Both the position numbers and the translations under genes were made by a program. This document shows, piece by piece, positions 1 to 36,580 of a DNA stretch of 37,784 bases (positions are counted from its first letter, which is position 1; each line of letters opens with the position of its first letter). Origin of the DNA: a virus (taxonomy: Duplodnaviria > Heunggongvirae > Uroviricota > Caudoviricetes); IMG/VR virus record IMGVR_UViG_2529292883_000004, positions 1-37,784 of that record; one strand, given 5' to 3'. The notes under the pieces are model-generated. The model was given only the letters and a program-made list of their open reading frames with translations. It did no database searches and had not been told where the DNA came from.

Positions 1-561
1 ATGCCCACTCAAATTTCTGTCGACACTCTTCCTGCAATCACCCACAACCAGGTCCCCGTTATTACAACTGAACTTCTGGCGCAGTTATACGGAACAAAAA
101 TCAAAAACATTTCTGATAACTTTCTGAACAACACGACGCGATTCGTGGTAGGAAAGCATTACTTTAAAATTGAAAAAAACGAATTACGCGAGTTTAAGAA
201 CAGACCCGAAACAATCGGGTTAGTTGGTAAAAATGCCCGTTCCCTTATCCTCTGGACAGAACGTGGCGCAGCCCGCCATGCCAAAATGCTCGAAACCGAT
301 CAGGCATGGGAAGTGTTCGAAAAACTGGAAGACTGTTATTTCAGCCAAAAACAACCACCAGCAACACAAAACTCACCCACCCCAAATGATGGATGCGCAT
401 TACTGATCCACTTTGATAAACACGGTCAGGTAGAGTTCACAGAAAAAGTCCCCGCCGATGCGATGGTATGCACTCTGGAACGGTTTAAATTTTATCTGGA
501 GCAACACGGCTGGCTCGTTGCCCGTAAAGAACAACTGGTGGAAAGGCTGATGCAGCTTTAG
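1..561 (+). CDS. ORF6N-domain protein (antirepressor-like), paralog of 32425..32988
   Basis: 186-aa ORF with ATG at position 1. The C-terminal half is nearly identical to the minus-strand ORF at 32425..32988; the N-terminal motif (ITHNQVPVITTELLAQLYG...RFVVGKHYFKI) is recalled as ORF6N/Bro-N-like. Family assignment is from memory. Confidence 0.55.
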   Translation: MPTQISVDTLPAITHNQVPVITTELLAQLYGTKIKNISDNFLNNTTRFVVGKHYFKIEKNELREFKNRPETIGLVGKNARSLILWTERGAARHAKMLETDQAWEVFEKLEDCYFSQKQPPATQNSPTPNDGCALLIHFDKHGQVEFTEKVPADAMVCTLERFKFYLEQHGWLVARKEQLVERLMQL

Positions 562-2758: not shown

Positions 2759-3550
2759 TTACAGTGATATCGCATTTATCCATGTACCGTTTATGCAGTA
2801 CTGAATCTGCCTGTAATAAATTCCGCCAATGTTATCTGCTGAATTTGATCCCGTTTCCTGAACAATAATACCTGTGAGCACATTTCCGGAGGAGAGATTA
2901 CTGGTCCACGACACCTCGTTACCGGAAGGCGTGTATGAGCTGGCGCTACTCAGTCTCACTGCCGACACACCGCCCGTCGTCAGCAGGTAACGGGCATCGA
3001 GCGTACTCAGATCCTGGGTTGCCACATCTCCCAGCCCCAGATTTGTTCTGGCCCCTGACGCAGTCGTGGCCCCGGTACCGCCACTGCTCACCGGCAGTGT
3101 GCCGGTCACGCCCAGCGTGACATTCGCACTGCCATCAAAAGTAACTGCACCCGTACTGCCAAGATTTATCTGGATTGTCCGGCCCGTTTTCAGTTTTGTG
3201 GCTGTATCCGCATTGCCCGTCAGGTCACCCGTGAGGGATGTCCCTGTTATCGCGCCGCCGGTGATATTCACCGCGTCACTGTTCTGACCGGCCATCGTAC
3301 CCAGAGCACCAATGGCGGTGTTCACATTCTCCTGTGAGGCAAAATATTTCGATAACGCCTGCCAGAGTTGTGTGTCATCAGTCGGATCCAGCGTCAGCCC
3401 CGCACTCTCCACAACCTTCACCAGCTCCCGCTGAATGAGGTTAAACCACGCCGCCAGCAACGGCGTTGGCTTCAGCCCTGTGGCAGGCGCGCCGTCAGTG
3501 AACTCGTCGTTTTCATCAACATACGGTGTGATATCAGATATTTTCTTCAC
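2759..3550 (-). CDS. Tail fiber protein with P2 gpH-like C-terminal receptor-binding domain
   Basis: The ORF-track start (GTG at 3571) lies inside a hairpin. An in-frame GTG at 3550 has an AAGGAG RBS 6 nt upstream and gives a protein starting MKKISDITPYV. The C-terminus ...YYRQIQYCINGTWINAISL matches the P2 H ending ...KYINGTWYNVAQV; a Gly/Thr-rich middle is present. Confidence 0.8.
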   Translation of the reverse strand: MKKISDITPYVDENDEFTDGAPATGLKPTPLLAAWFNLIQRELVKVVESAGLTLDPTDDTQLWQALSKYFASQENVNTAIGALGTMAGQNSDAVNITGGAITGTSLTGDLTGNADTATKLKTGRTIQINLGSTGAVTFDGSANVTLGVTGTLPVSSGGTGATTASGARTNLGLGDVATQDLSTLDARYLLTTGGVSAVRLSSASSYTPSGNEVSWTSNLSSGNVLTGIIVQETGSNSADNIGGIYYRQIQYCINGTWINAISL

Positions 3551-3595: not shown

Positions 3596-6500
3596 TTAAA
3601 CCCAGACTGGATAACGCTCAGACAAGATGCTGAAATCGCTCAGGGATACGCAGTTATAAAACGCATCCGCGTAACTCGTCACGCCAGGCAACTTCTCAAT
3701 GAGCGCACATCCGCTTCCCTGCAATGACCGGCAGTTGTAAAAACAACGGTACACACTGGTTATTTGCGGGTACTCTTCCGCCGGGAGAATGTCATTCACA
3801 TCACTCTCCAGCCCTGTGCAACCGTAAAAGGTGCCCTCAAACGTCGTCGCACTGACGCACCCCGCAAACAAGCCGTCGCCCACAGTGGTCAGCCCCGTAC
3901 AACCGTTAAAGGTCTCTCTGAATGTTGTGACGCTGGCGAGTCCTGCAAACAGTCCGTCTGGTATCGTCATCAGCCCCGTGCAACCATCAAAGGTCTGATA
4001 GAACGATGTCACTCCGGTACAGTTTTCAAACAGCCCGGCAGGCAGCACCGCCAGCCCCGTACAGCCGTAAAAAGTCTGACTGAACGTGGTCACAGCAGTG
4101 TTGTTGTCAAACAACCCTTCCGGCAGTGTCTTCAGACCTGTACAGCCCCGGAACGTCCGGTAAAACGACGTCACACGGTTACAGTTATCAAACAATCCTG
4201 CAGGTAACATCGTCAGCCCCGTACAGCCGAAAAACGTATCCTGGAAAGACCCTGCGCTGACACAACGGTCAAATACCGCCTCAGGCACCGTCGTCAGGGC
4301 GGCACACCGGTAAAATGTCCGGTAGAAGGTTGTCACGCCGTGGCTGCTGTCAAACAGCCCTGCAGGTATTGCTGTCAGCTTCGTGCAGCCACTGAAAGTC
4401 TGATAGAACGACGTCACACCTGTACATCCGTCAAATACACTGTCTCCCAGCGTTGTCAGCTTCGTGCAGTCGTAAAATGTGCCTTCGAACGTCGATGCAC
4501 TGCTGCAGCCTGCAAACGCCCTTTCACCCACCGTTACCAGTTCCGTGCAGCCATAAAACGTCCGGAAGAAGGTCGTCACACGACTACAGTTTTCAAACAG
4601 CCCGGCAGGCAGCGCCTTCAGTCTCACACAGTCGCCAAAGGCATAACTGAACGTCGTCACAGAGACGCAGTTGTCAAACAGCCCTGCCGGTATCGCTGTC
4701 AGAGCCGTACAGCCATAAAAAGCACTACTGAACGTGGTCACGGCAGTGCAGCTGTCAAACATCCCTTCCGGCAATGCCGTCAGTCCCCTGCAGTTATAAA
4801 AAGCACTACTGAACGTCGTCACAGCAGTACAACCTGCAAACACTCCCTCTCCTATGGATGTCAGCCCCGTACAGCCGTAAAACGCCCGGTAGAACGTCGT
4901 AACACTGGTACATCCGGCAAACACGCCGTCTCCCACCGTTGTCAGCCCGGCACAACCATAAAAGGTGTCTTCAAACGTTGTGGCACTGACACAACCGGCA
5001 AACACATTGTCGCCCAGCGTTCTCAGCCCGGAACAACCGTAAAAGGTCCGCCTGAAGGTTGTCACACTTACACAGTCTGCAAACAATCCTGACGGTATCG
5101 CGGTCAGGCCCGTGCATTCGTAAAACGCCTCAAAGAAAGTGGTGACACTGGCGCTGTCAGCGAACAACCCTGCCGGTATCGTTGTCAGCCCCCGGCATCC
5201 CGAAAACACCCCCTCAAACGTCGTGGCACCGGTACAGTCTGCAAATAATCTGGCCGGTACCTCCGACAACCCGGTACATTCGCCAAAAGTCTTATAGAAA
5301 GACTTTGCTCCGGTACAACCGGAAAACAACTCTGCAGGAACTTCCGACAGACGGGTACAACGGTAAAATGTCGTATAGAACGTCGTGGCTCCGGTACAAT
5401 CTGCAAACAATTCCGGGGGGACCATTGCCAGTCCTGTACACCCCAAAAACGACCGGTAAAACGATCTGACACCCGAACAACCAGCAAACACGTCAGCCGG
5501 TATCGTGACCAGTCCGGTGCAACCTTCAAATAAGCTTGCGAATGTTGTGGTACCTGTACAACCAGCAAATACTCTGTCACCCACTGTTGTCAGTGCTCTG
5601 CACCCGTAAAACGCGCTGTCAAACGTCGTGACACTGGTGAGTTTTTCAAATAACCCTGCCGGTATCGTTACCAGCCCCGAGCATCCCGAAAACCCCCCCT
5701 CAAACGTCGCAACCTCTGTGCAGTTTGCGAACAATTTTGCCGGTATCGCTGTCAGGGCCGCGCAGCCATAAAACGTCCGGTTGAATGTCGTCACCCCGGT
5801 ACAACTGTCAAACAACCCTTCCGGTATTGCTGTCAGAGCCGTGCAGCCATAAAAGGCATTACTGAACGTGGTCACGGCAGTGCAGCTGTCAAACATCCCT
5901 TCCGGCAATGCCGTCAGTCCCCTGCAGTTATAAAAAGCCTGGAGGAATGTCGTCACCCCGGTGCAGTCTGCAAATATCCCCTGACCTAATGATGTCAGCG
6001 CCTGGCAGCCATAAAAGGCCTGCAAAAACGTTGTGGCACTGGCACATCCGGCAAACACGCTGTTACCCACCGTGCTCAGTTCCCTGCAGTTATAAAAGAC
6101 CCTGTAAAATGTTGTCGCACTGGTGCACCCGGCAAACACATGGTCCCCCACGGCGCTCAGTCCGGTACAACCATAAAAGGTATCCTCAAACGTCGTGGCA
6201 CCGGTGCACCCGGCAAACACGCTCTCACCCACCGCTCTCAGCCCGGTACAGCCGTAAAACGCCTGACGAAAAGTCGTTACGCCTGTGCAGCCGGCAAACG
6301 CGCTGTCACCGACTGCAGTGAGTCCCGTACATTCGTAAAATGCCTGATAGAACGTCGTGGCGCTGGCGCACTCAGCAAACAGCCCCGGAGGTATCGCAGT
6401 CAGTCCTTTACACCGGTAAAATGCACTGTCGAATGCCGTAGCGTTTTTGCAAAAACGGAATGCGCCGCTGTCAATACTCACCAGACTGGGGGTATTACTC

Positions 6501-7939
6501 GCAAGGTAGCTACAGGATTTTTGTCCCGCCGGAAGTTGACGTAGTCTGACCAGGTCGTTGTAAGCCGTGCTGCTGTACCCGTACACCCTGAACCTGACAC
6601 TCCCCGCCGTTCTCACCCTGATTGTCCGGAGCTCCCCGTCTGCCAGTGAGTCGGGTAACAGGATATTCGCCCAGCCCCCGCTGGTTGTCGTTTCAAGCTG
6701 GTCCGCAGCAACATATCCGTCGCCGAAGCTGACACGACAGTTCACCACATCAGCAACACTGACCAGCGCTTTTGACGATGAAGCACAGACCGAATCAAAA
6801 ACCGCCGGCACGTAACAGCTGACCTGTAATGTTGCCGTGTGTCCGCCGTCATTTGTCGTCACCGTCACCACCGCATCACCTTCGCTCACCCCGCACACGG
6901 TCAGTGAACTGTCGCTGTTGACCACCACCGACACCACGCTTTCATCGCTGACCGTCACAGTCCAGCTCCGGTCTTCAGCATTCTCCGGCCAGACATTCAC
7001 CGCAACCGCGACATGCTCATCATTATCAAGCTCCAGCTCAGTGACCGACAGGTTCACACCGCGCACACTCACGATTTTCCGCAGATTTATCACCTCACTG
7101 CGTACCGGTACTGTCACGTCATCCGGCATATCAACGGCAGCCTCTGCATACGCCGAATACCAGCCGTTCGCAAAATCATCATCCTCCATTTCATACGACC
7201 AGTGCCCTTCACTGTCCGTTGTCACTGTCGCCACATACCGCTGTCCCGACGCGGATTTGATGACAACATTCACCGTCCCCCCCGACACCACCACCCCCTC
7301 ATCTGCCGTGAGCGCACCGGAAAGAACGTGTGTGATGTTGTCCCACGCAATGCTCAGGGCGGCGCTGTACGATGACTGCCACTCAAACGTCACCAGCGTA
7401 TGCGCCGGGGCATAACGACGAAACAGGCACTCCAGGTACGCCCGTGAGGTGGTCACCTCATCCCCCGGCGGGGCCACCACCACGGTCCAGTTAAACCGGT
7501 TGTCGTCACTCAGCAGATGCCCGCTCCACGAAAATCCGCACAGTGGTGTGCGGTACTCACGGATAGTGATGCTGTACCCCATCGTCGCCGCAAGCTCCGT
7601 GAAATACGCCACACTCTGCCCGCCTGTCGACAGCAGTTTCGCCAGAATGAATTTTCTGGCCTGCGCCGGGTCTGTGGTGGATGCCTGCGTCCCGCATTCA
7701 TCATTCAGCCCCAGCGAGGCATACCACTCATCAGTGAGCGCATCCGCCGTTTCCGGGAAGGCGCCCGTTATCAGTGCGCACGCATCAGCGTCACTCTGCC
7801 GGTACGCCTGTGCCAGTCCGCGTATCAGCCTGTGCTGCACACTGTCAGGCAGACGGCTCCAGGCAATCCCTGACGGCAGAAGGTTCAGCATCGCGCGCGT
7901 GTAGTCATCATGTGAAAAACGACTCATCTTTTTCCTCAT
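3596..7939 (-). CDS. Giant baseplate-associated protein: Mu gp48/DUF2313-like N-terminal domain + Ig-like domain + ~30 x 27-aa Cys-containing LRR-like repeats
   Basis: 1447-aa ORF whose start overlaps the stop of the J-like gene (7936..7939). The N-terminal ~190 aa resemble Mu gp48-type baseplate proteins as recalled. An Ig-like stretch follows (VTVSDESVVSVVVNSDSSLTVCGVSEGDAVVTVTTNDGGHTATLQVSCY). Then a long array of 27-aa units with consensus about xVFAGCTGxTTFxxxFYGCTGLTxxGD, flavoured like BspA-type LRRs. Confidence 0.85.
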   Translation of the reverse strand: MRKKMSRFSHDDYTRAMLNLLPSGIAWSRLPDSVQHRLIRGLAQAYRQSDADACALITGAFPETADALTDEWYASLGLNDECGTQASTTDPAQARKFILAKLLSTGGQSVAYFTELAATMGYSITIREYRTPLCGFSWSGHLLSDDNRFNWTVVVAPPGDEVTTSRAYLECLFRRYAPAHTLVTFEWQSSYSAALSIAWDNITHVLSGALTADEGVVVSGGTVNVVIKSASGQRYVATVTTDSEGHWSYEMEDDDFANGWYSAYAEAAVDMPDDVTVPVRSEVINLRKIVSVRGVNLSVTELELDNDEHVAVAVNVWPENAEDRSWTVTVSDESVVSVVVNSDSSLTVCGVSEGDAVVTVTTNDGGHTATLQVSCYVPAVFDSVCASSSKALVSVADVVNCRVSFGDGYVAADQLETTTSGGWANILLPDSLADGELRTIRVRTAGSVRFRVYGYSSTAYNDLVRLRQLPAGQKSCSYLASNTPSLVSIDSGAFRFCKNATAFDSAFYRCKGLTAIPPGLFAECASATTFYQAFYECTGLTAVGDSAFAGCTGVTTFRQAFYGCTGLRAVGESVFAGCTGATTFEDTFYGCTGLSAVGDHVFAGCTSATTFYRVFYNCRELSTVGNSVFAGCASATTFLQAFYGCQALTSLGQGIFADCTGVTTFLQAFYNCRGLTALPEGMFDSCTAVTTFSNAFYGCTALTAIPEGLFDSCTGVTTFNRTFYGCAALTAIPAKLFANCTEVATFEGGFSGCSGLVTIPAGLFEKLTSVTTFDSAFYGCRALTTVGDRVFAGCTGTTTFASLFEGCTGLVTIPADVFAGCSGVRSFYRSFLGCTGLAMVPPELFADCTGATTFYTTFYRCTRLSEVPAELFSGCTGAKSFYKTFGECTGLSEVPARLFADCTGATTFEGVFSGCRGLTTIPAGLFADSASVTTFFEAFYECTGLTAIPSGLFADCVSVTTFRRTFYGCSGLRTLGDNVFAGCVSATTFEDTFYGCAGLTTVGDGVFAGCTSVTTFYRAFYGCTGLTSIGEGVFAGCTAVTTFSSAFYNCRGLTALPEGMFDSCTAVTTFSSAFYGCTALTAIPAGLFDNCVSVTTFSYAFGDCVRLKALPAGLFENCSRVTTFFRTFYGCTELVTVGERAFAGCSSASTFEGTFYDCTKLTTLGDSVFDGCTGVTSFYQTFSGCTKLTAIPAGLFDSSHGVTTFYRTFYRCAALTTVPEAVFDRCVSAGSFQDTFFGCTGLTMLPAGLFDNCNRVTSFYRTFRGCTGLKTLPEGLFDNNTAVTTFSQTFYGCTGLAVLPAGLFENCTGVTSFYQTFDGCTGLMTIPDGLFAGLASVTTFRETFNGCTGLTTVGDGLFAGCVSATTFEGTFYGCTGLESDVNDILPAEEYPQITSVYRCFYNCRSLQGSGCALIEKLPGVTSYADAFYNCVSLSDFSILSERYPVWV
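3784..6440. repeat. Imperfect tandem array of 81-bp coding repeats (about 30 units) inside the giant gene
   Basis: An 81-nt periodicity is visible in the DNA (recurring gtacagccgtaaaa-like cores) and as a 27-aa periodicity in the protein. Boundaries are approximate. Confidence 0.8.
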
Positions 7940-29348: not shown

Positions 29349-29395
29349 AAAAAAAACACCACACCAAAGACATCCGCAGATGCCTTTGTGTGGTG
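29349..29395 (-). terminator. Strong rho-independent terminator immediately upstream of the lysis cassette
   Basis: Minus strand caccacacaaag-(loop)-ctttggtgtggtg with a 12-bp stem followed by T8. Confidence 0.65.
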
Positions 29396-29459
29396 TTATT
29401 CAGATTTGATATGTATGGGACGTGGAGCGAATACAAAAAAGCCCGTCAGAACAGGCCTC

Positions 29460-29488
29460 AAAAAAAAGCCAGCTCTGGGGAGGCTGGC
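29460..29488 (-). terminator. Rho-independent terminator
   Basis: Minus strand gccagc-ctccccagag-ctggc followed by T8. Confidence 0.55.
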
Positions 29489-30111
29489 AGGAATGAAAAA
29501 TGACTCTCGAGATTATTCATCACAAAACGGATTACTTTGCGCTGAACAGAATGCTCCTTCATCGTATATTTCTCAACTGGAGAGACTCATTTTCAGATTT
29601 TGTTATCTGTCATATTGACAGTCCCCACTTCTCCGGGGTAGTGAAGTAAGTAGCGTTTGCTTCCTGTAAATGCCCGAGGGTTATCCATGATCTCTTGTAT
29701 AAGGCATTCCTCAGTGGACTAATTTCGGAGTTATCATCCCGTTCAATTTCATCCAGGATCCCCTACTAAATAAGTTCACCATTCTTCAGGTGGCAGTTTC
29801 TTTCAGCCAACCGTGCACTCAACAGCACATTCTTGTCGGACTCAGAATAACTCCTGCAAATGCAACAATGATGGCCGTCGCCCCAATAACCTTGTGCTGC
29901 CCGCATCCGTAAAAAGCGAAGGCCCCAAATTACCAGAATAAAACCGAGCAGATATCCGACCTTCGTTACCGCATGGACTTCATTGTCTCATACACCAGGA
30001 TCAGCGAATTGCAAAGGATGAAGCACGCCCCATGAAGATTCTCCCAAAAACTATAATTGTAAAAACCAAAGTAGTGGAAGCGAGCACTTGTAACCCCGAA
30101 CTTTGAATAAA

Positions 30112-30131
30112 AAAAACCGCCTGGAGCGGCG
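30112..30131 (-). terminator. Rho-independent terminator downstream of the tRNA pair
   Basis: Minus strand accgcc-gctcca-ggcggt followed by T8. Confidence 0.55.
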
Positions 30132-30487
30132 GTTAATGGCATATAAAAACGCATGATTTAATTGTATTCAGAAGTGTCGGGTGCCACCCGAAGCATCCAG
30201 CCCCACAAGGATACTGTGGTTTCCCGCTAAACCGACTCTTTAAACCACCCTCGCACTGAGGAACACCTCTGTAGTGTTTTTACAACACCGGGATAGTGCA
30301 TCATCAGCCCTGCCAGGAAATACTAAATCTCCACCGATAATGCACCATTCCATTGTTGTAAAAAATCAGCACTGAGGCTATAACCGACCTCAAACCATAG
30401 CCTGAGGACCAAAGATGTATTAAAACAACCTGCCCCCACGTAAAAAAACACGCCAGTGCTGTATAATTCGTGTTGCCAGAATAATGA

Positions 30488-30562
<75 letters not shown>

Positions 30563-30565
30563 ATA

Positions 30566-30641
<76 letters not shown>

Positions 30642-30806
30642 ATTGGTTCCTCAGGTGTGGATGAGATGCCCGGATACATAAATTACCCTCCCTTGGAACC
30701 GACGAAGAATAATAATGAATTCCGCTCCTGTTTCAATACAAACAATGTCAGGTATTTAAAACATAATTATACAATATTATAAAAATTAAAAAGTTCGCAA
30801 AAAAAG

Positions 30807-31853
30807 TTAACTATTATTTCTTATTTCATCAACCGTTTGATTAAACCTGTCCGTTTCCAGCTCTACACCAATAGCTCTACGTTCCAGAGAGAGCGCAGCC
30901 TTTATAGTCGCCCCCGATCCCATAAAAAAGTCTGCAACCAGTTCCCCCGGACGACTGCTGGCTGTAATTATCTGCCGCAACATATCTGCTGGCTTCTCAC
31001 ACGGATGTTTACCCGGATAATACTGCACAGGTTTGTGCGTCCAGACATCCGTATAAGGAACGGCAGCTGATACGGAAAAATAACGCCGCAAAGATTTATA
31101 CTCTTCCAGCAGGCTGACATATTGCCGGTTCAGTTCGCTGTATGTGCTGACCAGATGGTGGTGTGGCTTTTCCAGTTCTCCGCGTTGATGTTTTTCTGCT
31201 GCAACACGCACAAACAACGCCTGAAGCTTTCTGTAATCAGCTTCGTTCGGTAACTGCCACTGGCTGGCACCAAACCAGTGCGAAGCCATGTTTTTCTTTC
31301 CGGTAGCTTCCGCTATCTGTTTCGGCGTTATTCCCAGTGATTCACGCGCATCACGAAAGTAAGAAATCAGCGGGGCCATGACATGCTGTTTTAGCTCGCG
31401 CCCCTTTGCCGCATAGCCGTCATTTTTGGGCTGGTATGGCCCCTGATAATGTTCTGCAAACAGAATGCGTTCTGTTGCAGGGAAATACGCCCGCAGGCTT
31501 TCCTTGTTGCATCCGTTCCAGCGTCCGGACGGCTTCGCCCAGATAATGTGGTTCAGCACATTAAAGCGTTCACGCATCATGATTTCGATATCAGATGCCA
31601 GACGATGACCACAGAACAGGTAGAGACTTCCGGCAGGTTTCAGTACCCGCCAGAATTGCGTCAGACACTGATCCAGCCATTTCAGGTAATCATCGTCGCC
31701 CTTCCACTGGTTATCCCAGCCCTGGGGCTTCACTTTAAAGTATGGCGGGTCTGTGACTATCAGATCGACAGAATTTTCCGGTAAGGTCTGGATAAATTCC
31801 AGGCAATCAGCGTTGATTAACTCACAACTGGATATTTTTACAGTATTAGCCAT
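30807..31853 (-). CDS. Orphan DNA N6-adenine methyltransferase (beta-class, DPPY motif first)
   Basis: 348 aa. Motif IV (LIVTDPPYF) is near the N-terminus and an FxGxG SAM-binding motif (ADFFMGSGAT) near the C-terminus. No adjacent restriction endonuclease gene. Confidence 0.8.
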   Translation of the reverse strand: MANTVKISSCELINADCLEFIQTLPENSVDLIVTDPPYFKVKPQGWDNQWKGDDDYLKWLDQCLTQFWRVLKPAGSLYLFCGHRLASDIEIMMRERFNVLNHIIWAKPSGRWNGCNKESLRAYFPATERILFAEHYQGPYQPKNDGYAAKGRELKQHVMAPLISYFRDARESLGITPKQIAEATGKKNMASHWFGASQWQLPNEADYRKLQALFVRVAAEKHQRGELEKPHHHLVSTYSELNRQYVSLLEEYKSLRRYFSVSAAVPYTDVWTHKPVQYYPGKHPCEKPADMLRQIITASSRPGELVADFFMGSGATIKAALSLERRAIGVELETDRFNQTVDEIRNNS

Positions 31854-32003
31854 AGATCAATAAGCACTTCTCTGATAGGCTCATACCGCTTTTGCGCAAA
31901 GCAGATGGGCCTGAGGTTTGCTTGTGACCCCAACGCATGAGCAGATGGCTGGCAGGTGCCGCTAACACCCACCAGCCGCCCATTACCACAAATAAAAAAG
32001 CCT

Positions 32004-32201
32004 TCACTGCGGAAGGCGTCTGTAACAACCGAACTGATAATCTGCCAGGCCCGCCATAACAAGCTGGGTCAGTATTAACTGGCAGCGCTCGCGTGAAAGG
32101 TAAGTATTCTGCGCAATCTCCCCGACGGTCGCCGGTTCGGTGACGCTTAATTCATTAAACACCACTCTGGCGGTTTCGGTCATATCCTGCTGTTTTAGCA
32201 T
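32004..32201 (-). CDS. Small winged-helix-like DNA-binding protein (hypothetical)
   Basis: Start chosen at the ATG at 32201 (MLKQQDMTETARVVFNELS...) with an AAGGGA RBS; about 65 aa. The VGEIAQNTYLSRERCQLILTQLVMAGL segment looks like an HTH. Confidence 0.45.
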   Translation of the reverse strand: MLKQQDMTETARVVFNELSVTEPATVGEIAQNTYLSRERCQLILTQLVMAGLADYQFGCYRRLPQ

Positions 32202-32424: not shown

Positions 32425-32988
32425 TTAAAGCCGCATCAGTCGTTCCAGCAGCTGCTCTTTACGGGCAACGATCCAGCCGCGTTGTTCCAGATAAAATTTG
32501 AACCGTTCCAGAGTGCATACCATCGCATCGGCGGGTACTTTTTCCGTGAAGTCGACCTGACCGTGTTTATCAAAGTGGATCAGTAATGCGCATCCATCAT
32601 TTTCGGTGGGGGAGTTTTGTGTTGCTGGTGGCTGTTTCTGGCTGAAATAACAGTCTTCCAGTTTTTCGAACACATCCCACGCCTGATCGGTTTCCAGCAT
32701 TTTGGCATGACGGGCTGCTCCGCGTTCTGTCCAGAGGATGAGGGAGCGGGCTTTGGGAGAGATGGGATTTTGTGAGTAGTTTAAAGCTACCCGCAATTCT
32801 TTAAGGTCATTACCAACAACTTTGAAAAAGTGTTTCCCTTCAACGAAGCGTACTTTGTTCTCATGATGATTCTGGCGAATACGCACCGGCTCAGTGCGGT
32901 AAAGCTGCGCCAAAAGTTCGGTGGTAATAACAGGAATCTGGTTATGGGTGATCGGGGAGAGAGTTTCAACAGAAATTTGAGTTGTCAT
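32425..32988 (-). CDS. ORF6N-domain protein (antirepressor-like), first gene after the late promoter
   Basis: 187 aa; C-terminal half nearly identical to ORF 1..561, N-terminal middle divergent. Preceded by cagagggtgtcattATG. Confidence 0.6.
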   Translation of the reverse strand: MTTQISVETLSPITHNQIPVITTELLAQLYRTEPVRIRQNHHENKVRFVEGKHFFKVVGNDLKELRVALNYSQNPISPKARSLILWTERGAARHAKMLETDQAWDVFEKLEDCYFSQKQPPATQNSPTENDGCALLIHFDKHGQVDFTEKVPADAMVCTLERFKFYLEQRGWIVARKEQLLERLMRL

Positions 32989-33146: not shown

Positions 33147-33172
33147 AATAAAAAACACGCTCGCGGCGTGTA
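33147..33172 (-). terminator. tR'-like rho-independent terminator just downstream of the late promoter
   Basis: Minus strand acacgc-cgcga-gcgtgt followed by tttttatt, about 60-70 nt downstream of the candidate pR'. Confidence 0.55.
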
Positions 33173-33231
33173 TCTGTCGCGGTCTCTATCCAGGACGCCA
33201 ATCCCGACGCCAGATTTTGCTGGCGCGTGAG

Positions 33232-33262
33232 GAATATAGCCCCGGACAATGTGTCTGGTCAA
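33232..33262 (-). promoter_or_regulatory. Candidate late promoter pR' (with presumed Q-utilisation region) directly after Q
   Basis: Minus strand TTGACC (plus 33257..33262), 18-19 nt spacer, TATATT (plus 33232..33237), beginning 5 nt after the Q stop codon. Confidence 0.45.
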
Positions 33263-34061: not shown

Positions 34062-35075
34062 TTAAAAAACGATCAGCAACAACAGCTGGCTGCCGTGTTT
34101 TTCTTCAAAATCTTTTACCCCGACGTGCAGTTCGTTATGACATTTACGGCACAGCGGAATAACAAACAAATCATCAGCCTTTGTTCCCATCCCTCCCAGT
34201 CCATGACCAATGATGTGATGCGGATCATCTGCCTGATTACCGCACGTCATGCATTTCTGTGTTTTTACCCAGCGCGTGTATACAGGCATCTCTTCCCGTT
34301 GTGGTTTCTGGCGCTGGAGATACTGAGCCGGTGACTCCGGATCAACGGCAATGCTGACCACCGTCTTTTCCTGTGGCGGGTTTTGCTGGTGGGCGTGAGG
34401 CAGCGGCGCAAGATTTTTTGTGCGCTGCTTCAGTATGCTGGTGGCGGTCTGCTCTCCCGGTACGATGTCGCTTTCACGGTACATTGAGCGGATTTTTTCC
34501 GCACGCAACCCCAGCGAACGACGTAATACCGCTTCCGGTAGCGCGTCCGCCACCTGATTGCGGACCGCCCACCAGGATAATTCAGCCAGAGATAATTCAC
34601 GCTCCTGCGTACCGCTTATTGCGTGACCGATGACGTCAATCATCCATGCTGCCAGGTTTTGATGAGCAAGTTGCTCTAGTGATTCGGCTGTCTGGTCACG
34701 CAACTGGTTGTCGCAGTGCCAACACAACACCATTGCGCCGGTACCATAACGGTGAATGACGGTTTCGCTGTGATGATAATCGCCGTGTGGCCACTGGCAG
34801 GATTTAATATGGCGCAACAGCCAGTCAGACAATGCACCAGCACCACCAGCAGCACGAATCACCCGTGCGTTACTGAAAAACGGCAGCAATGTTTTGTCTT
34901 CCACCAACGGCTGGCGAACGGCAGGCACGACCCCGGACGGCAGACTGCGCATGCTTTTTGGTTCCGGCTCCACCAGCACCCGGGGATTGTGAAATACCTG
35001 CATGGATTCACGACCTGGCTTAAGGACCACCAGCCCGAGTTCCGGTACCAGAACCGGTCGAAGTAATACCCGCAC
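34062..35075 (-). CDS. DUF968-like protein with C-terminal Cys/His cluster (YdfU-like, nin-region)
   Basis: Start chosen at the GTG at 35075 with a GGAGG RBS; the ORF-track N-terminal 42 aa look like out-of-frame junk. C-terminus CMTCGN...HHIIGHGLGGMGTKADD...PLCRKCHNELH. Family recalled from memory. Confidence 0.6.
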   Translation of the reverse strand: MRVLLRPVLVPELGLVVLKPGRESMQVFHNPRVLVEPEPKSMRSLPSGVVPAVRQPLVEDKTLLPFFSNARVIRAAGGAGALSDWLLRHIKSCQWPHGDYHHSETVIHRYGTGAMVLCWHCDNQLRDQTAESLEQLAHQNLAAWMIDVIGHAISGTQERELSLAELSWWAVRNQVADALPEAVLRRSLGLRAEKIRSMYRESDIVPGEQTATSILKQRTKNLAPLPHAHQQNPPQEKTVVSIAVDPESPAQYLQRQKPQREEMPVYTRWVKTQKCMTCGNQADDPHHIIGHGLGGMGTKADDLFVIPLCRKCHNELHVGVKDFEEKHGSQLLLLIVF

Positions 35076-35076
35076 G

Positions 35077-35355
35077 TTACCTCCAGATCCGTTGCTGGAA
35101 TGTGCGGGACGGACGCGGTGGGCGTTCAGAGTAAGGCAGTCTGACTGAGATGATCCAGTGTCGGAAGTCGAGGCTGAGGTCTTTCTGAAACTCGTAACCA
35201 CGTCTGCGGTAGTTCTGAATCAGCCATTCGGCCTGTTCTTCAGTGCATGGATCATGCTGGAACCAGTCAGATTTGAATGCATGAGAACGCCGCCCGCGCC
35301 TGCTGGCAAGGACGGCGAGATTATCAGAATTGTGATGTTTGGTATTGTGCGCCAT
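35077..35355 (-). CDS. Hypothetical protein, translationally coupled to the DUF968 gene
   Basis: 92-aa ORF whose TAA stop lies within the RBS of the next gene. No family recognised. Confidence 0.4.
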   Translation of the reverse strand: MAHNTKHHNSDNLAVLASRRGRRSHAFKSDWFQHDPCTEEQAEWLIQNYRRRGYEFQKDLSLDFRHWIISVRLPYSERPPRPSRTFQQRIWR

Positions 35356-35458: not shown

Positions 35459-36580
35459 CTAGTGAATTTTGCCTCTAAGAGTTCGGTAAGATTGTAGTGA
35501 AACAACATCACCACTTCCTGGCAGTTCATGAACCGCAGGAAGATCATCTCCTACTAACTCATAAAAAATGTCCACTTCTATATCCATTTCATCAGCTATA
35601 CGCTGTGGGTCGTATCCTAACTCTTCAAATAAAAACGATAAAGCCCGACGGAATAACTCAGGACGCTCATGAGGGATTAGATAATCTTCTTTTTCATCAA
35701 TAGCTTCCCCTTTCCGTTTCAACCCCATAAATGCAGTTCTGTACTGCTCATCAGTCAAAAGTCCTAATTGATGAGCCCTGTAAACAATGGCAGCCTTACT
35801 TACTTTCCATGTCAACTTAAATTGGCTTAGTCCCTGCCAATTTATCCTCCCCCCCACAGGTCTTGGAAAATATTTCGCCATCGACGTTCTGGGAAGCAAC
35901 AGAGCAGAGGCAAAGCGGTTTGCCTGGGATTCAGTTAATCTATCCCCAGTAGAAATTCCTTCATGAAGAATCAAATGGGCAACCTCATGAGCAATATCAA
36001 AGCGTTGCCTACAAGGTGAATTTTTAGCTGTATTTCGAACAATAAAAGGCCTTCGTAGAGGAACAGACAGTGCATCTACTTCATCCGAAACGGAGTCAAA
36101 TGAAGTAACAAACGCCCCAAGTTTCTCGGCAAGGCGAGTCATATTTTCAATTGGGCCAAAGCCTAAGCCCCACTCAATACGACATTTTTCTGCCGCTCGC
36201 TCGATATCTTCTTGTGTATGGACACGAAATTCAGGAAATCGAACAGGTGACAAATTAAGGTTATCTTCAAATACATCAATAAAACGACGATAAAACTCAG
36301 CCTTAGCGAGTGTTGATAGCTTCGTTGACATCCTTGTCGAGGCGCGTTTACGAAAATGTACAATCTCTTCATTAACAGGAGAATGTTCCTGCCCTTCGAA
36401 AAAGGCGGGCTTCACGCGCAAAACCTCGGCTAATTTATTTATAAGCTCTGGGGATGGAGTAGCTGAACCAGACTCCAGTCGCTGTACATACTGGCGTGTT
36501 TTTTCAACCTTCTCAGCAACCTGCTCCAGAGATAGCTCGTGATACAGACGAGCAAGTCTTAAATTAGTACCGTTAAACAC
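35459..36580 (-). CDS. Fused HTH-XRE DNA-binding domain + ImmA/IrrE-family (COG2856-like) zinc metallopeptidase
   Basis: 373 aa. N-terminus LRLARLYHELSLEQVAEKVEKTRQYVQRLESG is a typical XRE HTH. Central HEVAHLILH is an HExxH zinc-peptidase motif in an ImmA/IrrE-like context. Probable GTG start. AT-rich. Confidence 0.75.
   Translation of the reverse strand: MFNGTNLRLARLYHELSLEQVAEKVEKTRQYVQRLESGSATPSPELINKLAEVLRVKPAFFEGQEHSPVNEEIVHFRKRASTRMSTKLSTLAKAEFYRRFIDVFEDNLNLSPVRFPEFRVHTQEDIERAAEKCRIEWGLGFGPIENMTRLAEKLGAFVTSFDSVSDEVDALSVPLRRPFIVRNTAKNSPCRQRFDIAHEVAHLILHEGISTGDRLTESQANRFASALLLPRTSMAKYFPRPVGGRINWQGLSQFKLTWKVSKAAIVYRAHQLGLLTDEQYRTAFMGLKRKGEAIDEKEDYLIPHERPELFRRALSFLFEELGYDPQRIADEMDIEVDIFYELVGDDLPAVHELPGSGDVVSLQSYRTLRGKIH

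What the first reader, a model, noticed from the sequence alone, without database searches (positions are those of the whole stretch)
30807..32201. Orphan beta-class N6-adenine methyltransferase with an upstream small wHTH gene, in the Q-dependent late operon
The MTase has DPPY before FxGxG and no partner endonuclease, and lies downstream of pR'. It could protect phage DNA from host restriction or act epigenetically. The small wHTH gene upstream might be a controller-like regulator.
Basis: partly seen in the sequence, partly recalled or inferred. Interest (0 to 1): 0.45.

Follow-up and report, generated by a model that had tools for sequence, protein, structure and literature searches.

The report
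Phage non-specific adenine methylase, RNA-gated
The gene is an ordinary member of the known M.EcoGII family of phage enzymes that methylate almost every adenine in DNA, but just in front of it lies a conserved folded RNA leader, absent from Rfam 15 and from the papers I searched, that probably keeps this toxic enzyme switched off until it is needed.

Summary
A 348-aa beta-class DNA methyltransferase (30807-31853, minus strand; DPPY at residue 35, FMGSG at 310) follows a 65-aa winged-helix gene (32004-32201). Both lie downstream of Q and a pR'/tR'-like promoter-terminator pair in a phiP27-like lambdoid prophage. No endonuclease is nearby.

The enzyme is not new. It is about 84% identical to M.EcoGII, the characterised non-specific adenine methyltransferase of E. 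coli O104:H4 prophages, and 88% identical to a reconstructed ancestor that is also non-specific. The same small-gene/methylase/tRNA block sits before stx in phiP27 and many Stx phages. A discrete target motif is therefore not expected.

The small protein is a real, conserved, stand-alone winged helix (PHROG 331, function unknown). It is not an R-M controller protein.

The 131 nt between the two genes (31984-31854) are a conserved structured RNA with no Rfam match. It always ends at the methylase start codon and stays 72-90% identical where synonymous sites are saturated. It conserves two mutually exclusive folds. One pairs the start region with an upstream segment; the other, a three-way junction, frees it. 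I read it as a translational gate with an unknown trigger.

The parts
30807..31853 (-). M.EcoGII-family beta-class N6-adenine DNA methyltransferase, 348 aa, apparently intact
   Evidence: PF01555 at E=6e-42. DPPY at residue 35 and FMGSG at 310. About 84% identical to M.EcoGII, 88% to Anc291 and 71% to SUPREM. 91% identical to phiP27 L24 and 84% to the phage 1720a-02 MTase.
31854..31984 (-). Conserved structured 5' leader RNA of the MTase, a candidate translational switch
   Evidence: Covariance model R1 finds exactly one copy per locus, always ending at the MTase ATG (91 hits, E<=3e-14). 86.5% of cells pair against 25-43% in slid controls, and 15 pairs changed on both sides against 5.6 in shuffles. 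Identity is 72-90% where 4-fold sites of the MTase are 32-44% identical. No Rfam match even at E<=10. The reading frame is not conserved.
31947..31977 (-). P1: 12-bp hairpin GGCUGGUGGGUG / CACCUGCCAGCC
   Evidence: Compensatory and wobble changes. The helix has an entirely different sequence in L052 and L056. It is the only leader part kept in Photorhabdus/Xenorhabdus loci and in 4 viral contigs where the MTase is replaced.
31978..31983 (-). Segment a (AUGGGC): pairs with c to form helix J of the three-way junction, or with b
   Evidence: Helix J is paired in 100% of cells, with compensatory changes in L052 (G-C to A-U) and L056 (C-G to G-C). The a:b pairing is 99.2% paired.
31919..31943 (-). 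P2 hairpin. Its 5' half holds segment b (GCUCAU, 31942-31937); its 3' half holds the anti-start segment (GGUCAC-AAGC, 31930-31920)
   Evidence: The closing pair occurs as UA 34, CG 27, AU 18 and UG 4. Conserved tandem C.A/A.C mismatches become Watson-Crick pairs in L026 and L169.
31905..31911 (-). Segment c (GGCCCAU): 3' strand of helix J, or partner of d
   Evidence: The c:d pairing is 82% paired; pair 97:119 occurs as CG 51, UA 14 and UG 3.
31888..31902 (-). P3 hairpin GCUUU(loop)AAAGC
   Evidence: 88% of cells paired, mostly invariant. Weakly supported.
31878..31884 (-). Segment d (AUGAGCC): pairs with c or with b
31851..31865 (-). Translation-initiation region GCUUAUUGAUCU-AUG. It has no GGAGG-type Shine-Dalgarno and a near-invariant GAUC at -5 to -2
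   Evidence: It pairs with the anti-start segment in 91.2% of cells against 21-39% in slid controls, with 5 pairs changed on both sides. This pairing is part of the minimum-energy fold.
32000..32017 (-). P0: terminator-like hairpin plus U-run overlapping the stop codon of the small gene
   Evidence: Terminator scan. A hairpin of variable sequence occupies the same place in nearly all loci, whatever the upstream gene.
32004..32201 (-). Stand-alone 65-aa winged-helix protein, PHROG 331, function unknown
33233..33262 (-). pR'-like late promoter (the isrK promoter) directly after the Q stop codon
   Evidence: TTGACC-18-TATATT, 10 of 12 matches. The Rfam isrK match starts about 7 nt downstream.
33150..33226 (-). 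IsrK-type short RNA ending in the tR'-like intrinsic terminator (33171-33155)
   Evidence: Rfam RF01394 at 75.5 bits against a gathering score of 50, E=2e-15. Terminator scan. Gifsy-1 locus described in PMC4825925.
33267..33662 (-). Q-family antiterminator (AntQ-like)
   Evidence: PF06530 at E=2.5e-52.
30488..30641 (-). tRNA-Thr(UGU) and tRNA-Gly(UCC) directly after the MTase, with their own promoter-like site at 30736-30709
   Evidence: ARAGORN, Rfam tRNA, promoter scan. phiP27 and Stx phages carry tRNAs in the same position.

Best explanation
The 348-aa gene encodes a member of the M.EcoGII family, the phage-borne beta-class methyltransferases that convert adenine to N6-methyladenine in essentially any sequence context.

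It sits in the late transcription unit of a phiP27-like lambdoid prophage. The gene order is Q, a pR'/IsrK promoter with its terminator, a variable accessory gene (here an ORF6N anti-repressor), a small winged-helix gene with its own terminator-like hairpin, a 131-nt leader, the MTase, tRNAs and the lysis genes.

In the lysogen the gene is kept silent by termination. After induction, Q-modified RNA polymerase reads through, the enzyme is made late, and it heavily methylates replicating phage DNA before packaging. Progeny then resist many adenine-sensitive restriction systems. These steps are inferred from the family and the gene order, not shown here.

A second layer of control is the conserved leader RNA. 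In its most stable fold, the region just before the AUG (GCUUAY-UGAUCU, no canonical Shine-Dalgarno) pairs with the segment GGUCAC-AAGC. In the alternative fold that segment forms hairpin P2 inside a three-way junction (J, P1, P2), and the start region is free. I propose a translational gate that limits synthesis of a toxic enzyme. Its trigger is unknown; candidates are a ligand, a protein, RNase III processing or folding kinetics.

The winged-helix protein is a frequent but dispensable companion of unknown role.
For: Family assignment:
- About 84% identical to M.EcoGII over the full length, 88% to Anc291 and 71% to Anc284/SUPREM. All three are experimentally non-site-specific (PMC5778455, PMC11551740).
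- The phage 1720a-02 MTase, which Murray et al. name as very similar, is about 93% identical to M.EcoGII. It carries the same small gene and the same leader.
- Homologues with about 93% similarity are listed as 'nonspecific' and give no signal in lysogen methylomes.

Context:
- Q, promoter and terminators.
- The same block lies before stx in phiP27 and in 39 phage records, and is present in 2169 of 5426 complete E. coli genomes.
- No endonuclease is nearby.

Leader:
- It always ends at the MTase ATG. In viral contigs, 112 of 116 motif hits have the MTase start 129-131 nt after the motif.
- There is one covariance-model hit per locus.
- Covariation and pairing statistics support the helices.
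- It is under strong purifying selection relative to synonymous sites.
- The OFF fold is the minimum-energy structure in 60 of 84 distinct sequences. The three-way-junction fold is a median 3.8 kcal/mol higher.
- The window leader folds at -63.1 kcal/mol, z=-3.3.
Against: No activity, expression or methylome data exist for this copy.

The M.EcoGII sequence I compared against was machine-read from a supplement and contains a few reading errors, so the identities are approximate.

Specificity could have changed within the 16% divergence, although the bracketing by non-specific ancestors argues against it.

Anti-restriction benefit has been proposed for this family but, in the papers I read, not demonstrated with phage.

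For the leader, much of the helix support comes from invariant columns. Several compensatory changes rest on a few divergent sequences (L026, L052, L056, L169). The alignment used for counting (A5) was fitted to the three-way-junction model, which favours that fold. P3 and P4 are weakly supported: 23 of 84 distinct sequences have a C.A mismatch in P4. The ON/OFF assignment is an inference from pairing alone.

Photorhabdus/Xenorhabdus loci keep only P1, and a few homologues (L018, L054, L055) lack the leader, so it is not obligatory.
Confidence: 0.8

Rival explanations
1. The MTase is a conventional sequence-specific orphan methyltransferase, Dam- or CcrM-like. It marks a defined motif for epigenetic regulation in the lysogen or for protection from one restriction system.
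For: Automated annotation calls its relatives 'site-specific DNA-methyltransferase'. The nearest solved structures and NCBIfam models are sequence-specific beta-class enzymes such as RsrI, MboIIA and CcrM, but only at E=1e-14 to 1e-24 and far below family cut-offs.
Against: It is 84-88% identical over the full length to enzymes shown to be non-specific, and lies within the span of sequences between M.EcoGII and SUPREM. Close homologues give no motif in lysogen methylomes. The gene lies behind predicted terminators in a late operon.
Confidence: 0.08
2. The small winged-helix protein is the regulator of the MTase. It would bind the P1 inverted repeat as DNA, or the leader as RNA, and set the timing or level of methylase synthesis. 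This is functionally analogous to an R-M controller protein.
For: The small gene lies 100-150 nt upstream of the MTase in most genome loci (about 40 of 56) from at least ten genera, and in 107 of 113 viral loci with enough upstream sequence. It is under purifying selection. In 4 viral contigs where the MTase is replaced, the small gene and P1 stay together. Winged helices bind DNA, and sometimes RNA, as in SelB.
Against: The full leader and the MTase occur without the small gene in at least 12 genome loci, and no copy is found elsewhere in those 9-kb loci. P1 varies through G-U wobbles and one-sided transitions, as expected for an RNA stem rather than a DNA palindrome. The protein has a net charge near -1 and a largely hydrophobic third helix (read from the sequence). 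It has no HTH_3 or C-protein signature and no fusion to an MTase anywhere.
Confidence: 0.25
3. The conserved 131 nt are not a regulatory RNA. They are kept for another reason: recent horizontal spread of one module, a DNA-level element such as a promoter, operator or recombination linker, or a small overlapping ORF.
For: Much of the sequence is invariant, so direct covariation evidence is limited to a subset of pairs. Lambdoid phages exchange modules by recombination at conserved boundaries (own knowledge). The 4 contigs with a replaced MTase break exactly after P1. ORFs of 35-66 aa can be drawn through the region in many loci.
Against: Adjacent synonymous sites are saturated (32-44% identity) while the leader keeps 72-90%, so recent transfer cannot explain the conservation. 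The reading frame and stop positions of the drawn ORFs differ between loci, and 1-nt indels occur. Compensatory changes appear in J, P1, P2 and the start-region helix, and all exceed the slid and shuffled controls. No sigma-70-like promoter was found there.
Confidence: 0.12
4. The small winged helix acts on the product rather than the gene. It would read or shield m6A-rich DNA, for example against m6A-dependent type IV nucleases, or act as a partner of the MTase.
For: Winged-helix domains of DpnI-type and related nucleases sense m6A, and M.EcoGII-modified DNA becomes a substrate for such nucleases (PMC11037411). Winged-helix domains of small-molecule O-methyltransferases, known as dimerisation domains (own knowledge), are among the top Foldseek matches.
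Against: There is no specific structural or sequence match to DpnI-type readers among the top 50-60 hits of either fold search. The key Z-alpha residues are absent. This rests on association only.
Confidence: 0.1

Closest known systems
M.EcoGII and M.EcoGI of E. coli O104:H4 C227-11 (Murray et al. 2018, PMC5778455)
   Same: Beta-class enzyme of the same length (348 against 349 aa). About 84% identical end to end, with DPPY, a central target-recognition region and a C-terminal FxGxG. Prophage-borne with no endonuclease partner. The closely related phage 1720a-02 copy has the same small upstream gene and the same leader.
   Different: About 16% of residues differ and the C-terminal tail differs. 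Activity of this copy is untested. The upstream leader and the small gene are not mentioned in the passages of the M.EcoGII papers returned by my term searches, including one for 'upstream' and 'promoter'.
phiP27 genes L23-L24 and the Q-to-stx region of Stx2 phages
   Same: The same block: small winged-helix gene (100% identical protein), a 150-nt spacer, the MTase (91% identical), tRNAs, then holins and endolysin.
   Different: phiP27 carries stx2e after the tRNAs and a GIY-YIG gene between Q and L23. This window has no toxin genes (1.1 kb without ORFs) and has an ORF6N anti-repressor with IsrK/C4-type RNAs after Q.
Type II R-M controller (C) proteins
   Same: A small helix-turn-helix-type gene placed just upstream of, and co-oriented with, a modification-related gene.
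   Different: C proteins are Xre-type HTH proteins that time an endonuclease gene through C-boxes (own knowledge). Here the fold is a winged helix, there is no endonuclease, and there is no HTH_3 match.
Translational RNA switches, such as riboswitch expression platforms and phage leaders that hide or expose the ribosome-binding site
   Same: A conserved leader with two mutually exclusive, both-conserved pairings. One of them occludes the start region.
   Different: It matches none of the 4227 Rfam 15 families. No ligand, protein or processing event is known, and the loops are variable while the junction strands are conserved.
Gifsy-1 antQ-isrK-orf45-anrP locus (PMC4825925)
   Same: A Q-family gene followed by an IsrK match above Rfam's gathering score, a C4-type RNA match and an ORF6N anti-repressor, in the same order.
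   Different: In Gifsy-1 the locus is followed by isrJ and the lysis genes. Here the winged-helix gene, leader, MTase and tRNA block is inserted before the lysis genes.

Membership tests
Beta-class amino (N6A/N4C) DNA methyltransferases (Pfam PF01555) | Match to the family profile above the curated cut-off | tested here: met
   144.5 bits against a cut-off of 26.7, E=6.2e-42, residues 29-340.
Beta-class amino (N6A/N4C) DNA methyltransferases (Pfam PF01555) | Catalytic motif IV (DPPY) lies N-terminal to the SAM-binding motif I (FxGxG), with the target-recognition region between them | tested here: met
   DPPY at residue 35 and FMGSG at 310. Motif order as defined in PMC7544214 and PMC5778455.
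M.EcoGII family (non-specific adenine methyltransferases of enterobacterial prophages) | High full-length sequence identity to M.EcoGII, placing it among experimentally non-specific sequences | tested here: met
   About 84% to M.EcoGII (a machine-read sequence, so approximate), 88% to Anc291 and 71% to SUPREM. M.EcoGII itself is 70% identical to SUPREM.
M.EcoGII family (non-specific adenine methyltransferases of enterobacterial prophages) | Prophage location without a cognate endonuclease | tested here: met
   Late region of a phiP27-like prophage. The neighbours are an anti-repressor, a winged-helix gene, tRNAs and lysis genes.
M.EcoGII family (non-specific adenine methyltransferases of enterobacterial prophages) | Methylates adenine in any sequence context | not testable with these tools
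   Needs expression followed by LC-MS and long-read methylome analysis.
M.EcoGII family (non-specific adenine methyltransferases of enterobacterial prophages) | Silent in the lysogen | not testable with these tools
   Only indirect support: predicted terminators at 33171-33155 and 32017-32000 between the late promoter and the gene, and the start-occluding leader fold.
R-M controller (C) proteins | Xre-type helix-turn-helix fold (HTH_3) | tested here: not met
   No HTH_3 hit. The only hit is a weak TrmB match. The AF2 model is a winged helix. The nearest folds are IclR, ArsR, MarR and Z-alpha type winged helices.
R-M controller (C) proteins | Controls an adjacent restriction endonuclease gene | tested here: not met
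   No endonuclease gene lies in the operon.
R-M controller (C) proteins | C-box operator upstream of its own gene | not tested
   The region upstream of the small gene was not analysed for conserved repeats across loci.
Z-alpha (Z-DNA/Z-RNA binding) domains | Conserved Asn/Tyr on helix 3 and Pro-Pro-x-Trp in the wing (own knowledge) | tested here: not met
Lambdoid Q-dependent late operon | Q antiterminator gene followed directly by a constitutive promoter and an intrinsic terminator that produce a short RNA | tested here: met
   PF06530. Promoter-like site and terminator. Rfam isrK at 75.5 bits spanning exactly that interval.
Lambdoid Q-dependent late operon | Downstream genes are transcribed only after Q-mediated antitermination | not testable with these tools
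   Inferred from gene order and from the Gifsy-1 and Stx phage literature.
Any described RNA family (Rfam 15, including SAM and SAH riboswitches and ribozymes) | Covariance-model match to the leader | tested here: not met
   No hit at E<=0.1 in a 6-kb scan. Only chance-level hits (E>4) appear in a 191-nt scan with permissive filters.

The most novel reading that the evidence does not exclude
The 131-nt leader is a previously undescribed class of cis-regulatory RNA dedicated to M.EcoGII-type non-specific methyltransferases. It would be a bistable switch whose three-way-junction form is stabilised by a specific trigger. That trigger could be a metabolite such as SAM or SAH, a late phage protein, the neighbouring winged-helix protein, or RNase III processing. 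Stabilising the junction would free the start codon, and so license a burst of genome-wide adenine methylation only during lytic growth.
Probability: 0.4. Interest if true: 0.65.

Novelty: new member of a known kind. Interest (0 to 1): 0.45.

Why it matters
The enzyme family is already important. M.EcoGII is the standard tool for footprinting chromatin and protein-DNA contacts by adenine methylation (PMC6293860, PMC10705563). How phages keep such a dangerous, indiscriminate enzyme harmless in lysogens, and when they release it, has only been guessed at (PMC5778455).

This analysis reclassifies the finding as a member of that family, which spares a fruitless search for a motif. It also shows that the native gene carries two conserved companions that the passages I read of the enzyme papers do not mention: a small winged-helix protein and a structured leader with ON and OFF folds.

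If the leader is a true switch, it would explain the silence in lysogens. It would also be a compact, portable off-switch for toxic methyltransferases. Finally, it is present in roughly 40% of complete E. coli genomes, including the Q-to-stx interval of many Shiga-toxin phages, where transcription and RNA structure bear on toxin expression.

Tried and rejected
- Restriction partner: none among the neighbours scanned with Pfam, PHROGs or PADLOC. The DUF968/HNH protein at 34062-35201 has no PADLOC hit and lies upstream of Q, among genes typical of lambdoid phages (own knowledge).
- C-protein membership of the small gene: rejected on fold and context.
- Z-alpha or DpnI-type m6A reader: the fold resemblance is generic only and the key Z-alpha residues are absent. 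DpnI is not among the top hits. This remains a speculation.
- Fusion (Rosetta-stone) evidence linking the small protein to MTases: none in 1.84 billion representatives.
- Known RNA families for the leader: none.
- A conserved upstream ORF or translational coupling: frames and stop positions differ between loci.
- An internal sigma-70 promoter in the leader: none found.
- RNAalifold on the raw MAFFT alignment gave a poor consensus (-13 kcal/mol), because indels in loops shifted the helix arms. I rebuilt the structure by hand, then with a covariance model.
- P4 (AUCAG:CUGAU) as the main start-occluding hairpin: downgraded, because 23 of 84 sequences carry an uncompensated C.A mismatch. The long-range anti-start helix is better supported.
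- Exact M.EcoGII sequence: only a machine-read copy from a supplement was available. The supplement of the original paper is not held.
- The 1.1-kb ORF-free stretch in the 'stx slot': only about 30% of it resembles two E. coli phage records, one of them the LT-IIb phage. Not pursued.
Full report
**What is there**

All genes of the region lie on the minus strand. The 348-aa ORF at 31853-30807 matches Pfam N6_N4_Mtase at E=6e-42. It has DPPY at residue 35 and FMGSG at residue 310, which is the beta-class order.

The 65-aa ORF at 32201-32004 lies 150 nt upstream. The two genes sit inside the late region of a phage.
- Upstream are a DUF968/HNH gene, RusA and a Q-family antiterminator (33662-33267).
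- Downstream are tRNA-Thr and tRNA-Gly (30641-30488), about 1.1 kb without ORFs, two holins, an M15 endolysin and Rz.
- Further down are a lambda-type terminase, a portal and tail genes.

Directly after the Q stop codon lies a promoter-like site, TTGACC-18-TATATT (33262-33233). An intrinsic terminator follows at 33171-33155. The interval between them matches Rfam isrK above its gathering score, and a C4-type antisense RNA match follows. Next comes an ORF6N anti-repressor at 32988-32425.

This is the antQ-isrK-anrP arrangement studied in Gifsy-1. There the promoter is active in lysogens and most transcripts stop at the terminator (PMC4825925). It is analogous to pR'/tR'/StxS in Stx phages (PMC7547250).

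A second terminator-like hairpin (32017-32000) overlaps the stop codon of the small gene. Dependence on Q is inferred from the layout.

**What the methyltransferase is**

The 1.85-kb block has 80-92% nucleotide identity to phiP27 and to 38 other phage records, mostly Stx2 phages. It occurs in 2169 of 5426 complete E. coli genomes. In phiP27 the order is Q, a GIY-YIG gene, L23 (65 aa, 'TrmB family'), L24 ('DNA methyltransferase'), tRNAs, stx2e, holins and endolysin.

The window protein is 91% identical to L24 and 84% identical to the MTase of phage 1720a-02. [quoted passage not shown] I compared the window protein with sequences printed in the supplement of the SUPREM paper. These are machine-read and contain a few obvious errors.
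- Window protein to M.EcoGII: about 84% identical over its full length.
- Window protein to the reconstructed ancestor Anc291: 88%.
- Window protein to Anc284/SUPREM: 71%.
- M.EcoGII to SUPREM: 70%.

That paper reports largely non-site-specific RNA methylation by M.EcoGII, Anc291 and SUPREM. The DNA non-specificity of M.EcoGII comes from Murray et al.. The window enzyme therefore lies within the span of sequences that have the non-specific activity.

Homologues of about 93% similarity in O111 STEC are listed as 'nonspecific' and give no signal in lysogen methylomes (PMC6602927). No solved structure of this family exists. The best PDB sequence matches are distant beta-class enzymes at E about 1e-23.

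I conclude with about 0.8 confidence that this is a functional M.EcoGII-family enzyme. Two consequences follow. A methylome of the lysogen should show nothing. Expression should give dense, motif-less m6A.

**The small protein**

It is a real gene. The ORF is found 100-150 nt upstream of the MTase in most genome loci (about 40 of 56). These span Escherichia, Mixta, Kluyvera, Klebsiella, Enterobacter, Citrobacter, Salmonella, Mangrovibacter, Buttiauxella, Rosenbergiella, Photorhabdus and Xenorhabdus. Identity falls to 37-41%. In viral contigs it is present in 107 of the 113 loci with enough upstream sequence.

Median dN/dS is 0.24. It belongs to PHROG 331, of unknown function, and has no NCBIfam or PADLOC match. 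AlphaFold2 gives a minimal winged helix; the best of five models has pLDDT 89.7 and the other four 57-68.

- the winged-helix domains at the start of small-molecule O-methyltransferases, known as dimerisation domains (own knowledge);
- MarR and ArsR regulators;
- SelB;

A profile search of 1.84 billion representatives finds only 84 clusters. Apart from two weak matches to long proteins, all are short stand-alone proteins, and none is fused to a methyltransferase.

It is not an R-M controller protein. The fold is different and there is no endonuclease to control. Its role is open. I keep regulator of the MTase (0.25) and reader, shield or partner for m6A DNA (0.1) as rivals.

**The leader, the part that is new**

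The spacer between the two genes is conserved at the nucleotide level across the genome loci. This includes at least 12 loci in which a different gene replaces the small winged-helix gene. The reading frame through it is not conserved, and 1-nt indels occur.

In viral contigs, a 20-nt motif from its 5' end is followed by the MTase start 129-131 nt later in 112 of 116 cases. In the other 4, only the first hairpin remains and an unrelated 237-aa gene replaces the rest.

Where the neighbouring MTase genes are 55-85% identical in protein and their 4-fold sites are near saturation (32-44% identity), the leader keeps 72-90% identity. No Rfam 15 family matches, even in a permissive 191-nt scan.

A covariance model built on a hand-derived structure finds exactly one copy per locus and one in the window. 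That gave 91 hits of 64-169 bits.

On that alignment, 86.5% of cells pair against 25-43% when partners are slid by 1-3 columns. Fifteen pairs have changes on both sides, against 5.6 in shuffles (0 of 500 shuffles reach the observed value). The best-supported helices are:
- **J** (UGGGC:GCCCA): 100% paired, with compensatory changes in L052 and L056.
- **P1** (12 bp): wobble and compensatory variation, and a wholly different sequence in L052 and L056.
- **P2**: the closing pair occurs as U-A 34, C-G 27, A-U 18 and U-G 4. Its conserved tandem C.A/A.C mismatches become Watson-Crick pairs in L026 and L169.

**Two folds**

Four segments are mutually complementary:
- a, AUGGGC;
- b, GCUCAU;
- c, GGCCCAY;
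- d, RUGAGCC.

Each possible pairing is conserved:
- a:c (helix J) is 100% paired.
- a:b is 99.2% paired.
- b:d is 96.6% paired.
- c:d is 82% paired, with covariation at one pair.

In addition, the 3' half of P2 (GGUCAC-AAGC) is complementary to the region just before the AUG (GCUUAY-UGAUCU). This pairing holds in 91.2% of cells against 21-39% in slid controls. Five of its pairs have changes on both sides, and none of 500 shuffles reached that number or the observed covariation score.

The MTase start has no GGAGG-type Shine-Dalgarno. The near-invariant UGAUC at -6 to -2 could pair with the GAUCA near the 3' end of 16S rRNA (own knowledge).

Constrained folding of the 84 distinct sequences gives two states:
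- The fold with a:b, c:d and anti-start:start is the minimum-energy structure in 60 of them.
- The three-way-junction fold (J, P1, P2) is a median 3.8 kcal/mol less stable.

The simplest reading is a translational gate. It is OFF when the start region is paired, and ON when the junction forms and captures the anti-start segment. What shifts the balance is unknown. Candidates are a ligand, a protein, RNase III cleavage of the long a:b+P1 duplex, or co-transcriptional kinetics.

Several caveats apply. Many columns are invariant. Several compensatory events come from a few divergent sequences. The alignment was fitted to the junction model. P3 and P4 are weak. The element is reduced to P1 in Photorhabdus/Xenorhabdus and is absent from a few homologues.

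**Comparison and verdict**

The finding as given is an ordinary, already characterised kind of gene. It is a new copy of the M.EcoGII family in its usual place, between Q and the lysis or toxin genes of phiP27- and Stx-type prophages.

The 'controller' idea fails the membership test. The protective role is plausible but remains an inference.

The added value of this second look has three parts:
- It reclassifies the enzyme.
- It shows that the small winged-helix gene is a conserved, narrowly distributed companion of unknown function.
- It describes a conserved, apparently bistable leader RNA. That RNA is not in Rfam 15, and I did not find it described in the M.EcoGII, Stx-phage sRNA or Gifsy-1 papers I consulted.

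Noticed in passing
window 33267-32425 (minus strand): Right after Q there are three Rfam matches above their gathering scores: isrK (33226-33150), c4-a1b1 (33239-33187) and C4 antisense RNA (33124-33041). An ORF6N anti-repressor follows. This is the Gifsy-1 antQ-isrK-orf45-anrP regulatory module, here placed ahead of the methylase block.
   Followed up: partly
window 29363-30487: About 1.1 kb without any ORF over 76 aa occupies the slot that holds stx2e in phiP27. Only about 30% of it resembles two E. coli phage records, one of them the LT-IIb enterotoxin phage SerU-LTIIb. It contains two terminator-like hairpins (30134-30115 and 29459-29438).
   Followed up: partly
window 30709-30736 (minus strand): A promoter-like site (TTGAAA-16-TATTAT) lies between the MTase stop codon and tRNA-Thr. 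This fits the separate tRNA promoter mapped in Stx2 phage Sp5 (PMC7547250).
   Followed up: no
between Q and the small winged-helix gene: window 32425-32988; L002 2742-3971; L062 6118-6936: The slot holds a different accessory gene in each relative: an ORF6N anti-repressor here, a GIY-YIG nuclease in phiP27, a CPBP protease in E. coli 'numer 3', and an OB-fold protein in others. It is a variable cargo site next to a conserved block.
   Followed up: partly
L080, L119, L145, L165 (viral contigs): The small winged-helix gene and hairpin P1 are kept, but the rest of the leader and the MTase are replaced by an unrelated 237-aa ORF. The break lies exactly after P1.
   Followed up: partly
L123 (viral contig), 402-421 and 3388-3407: Two copies of the leader's 5' motif lie about 3 kb apart on one strand. 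This may be a tandem duplication of the block.
   Followed up: no
window 1-561 (+) and 35459-36580 (-): A second ORF6N-domain protein lies at the window start on the opposite strand. An HTH_3 plus Peptidase_M78 (ImmA/IrrE-type) fusion protein lies near the early region.
   Followed up: no
window 3596-7939 (minus strand): A 1447-aa tail protein combines a Mu Gp48-like N-terminus with Big_2 and BspA-type leucine-rich repeats.
   Followed up: no
L019, L025, L043, L057, L059 (genome contigs): Near-identical enterobacterial prophage sequence appears in assemblies labelled Vagococcus, Chryseobacterium, Collinsella and Bacillus or Bacillota. These are probably contamination or mis-binned contigs.
   Followed up: no
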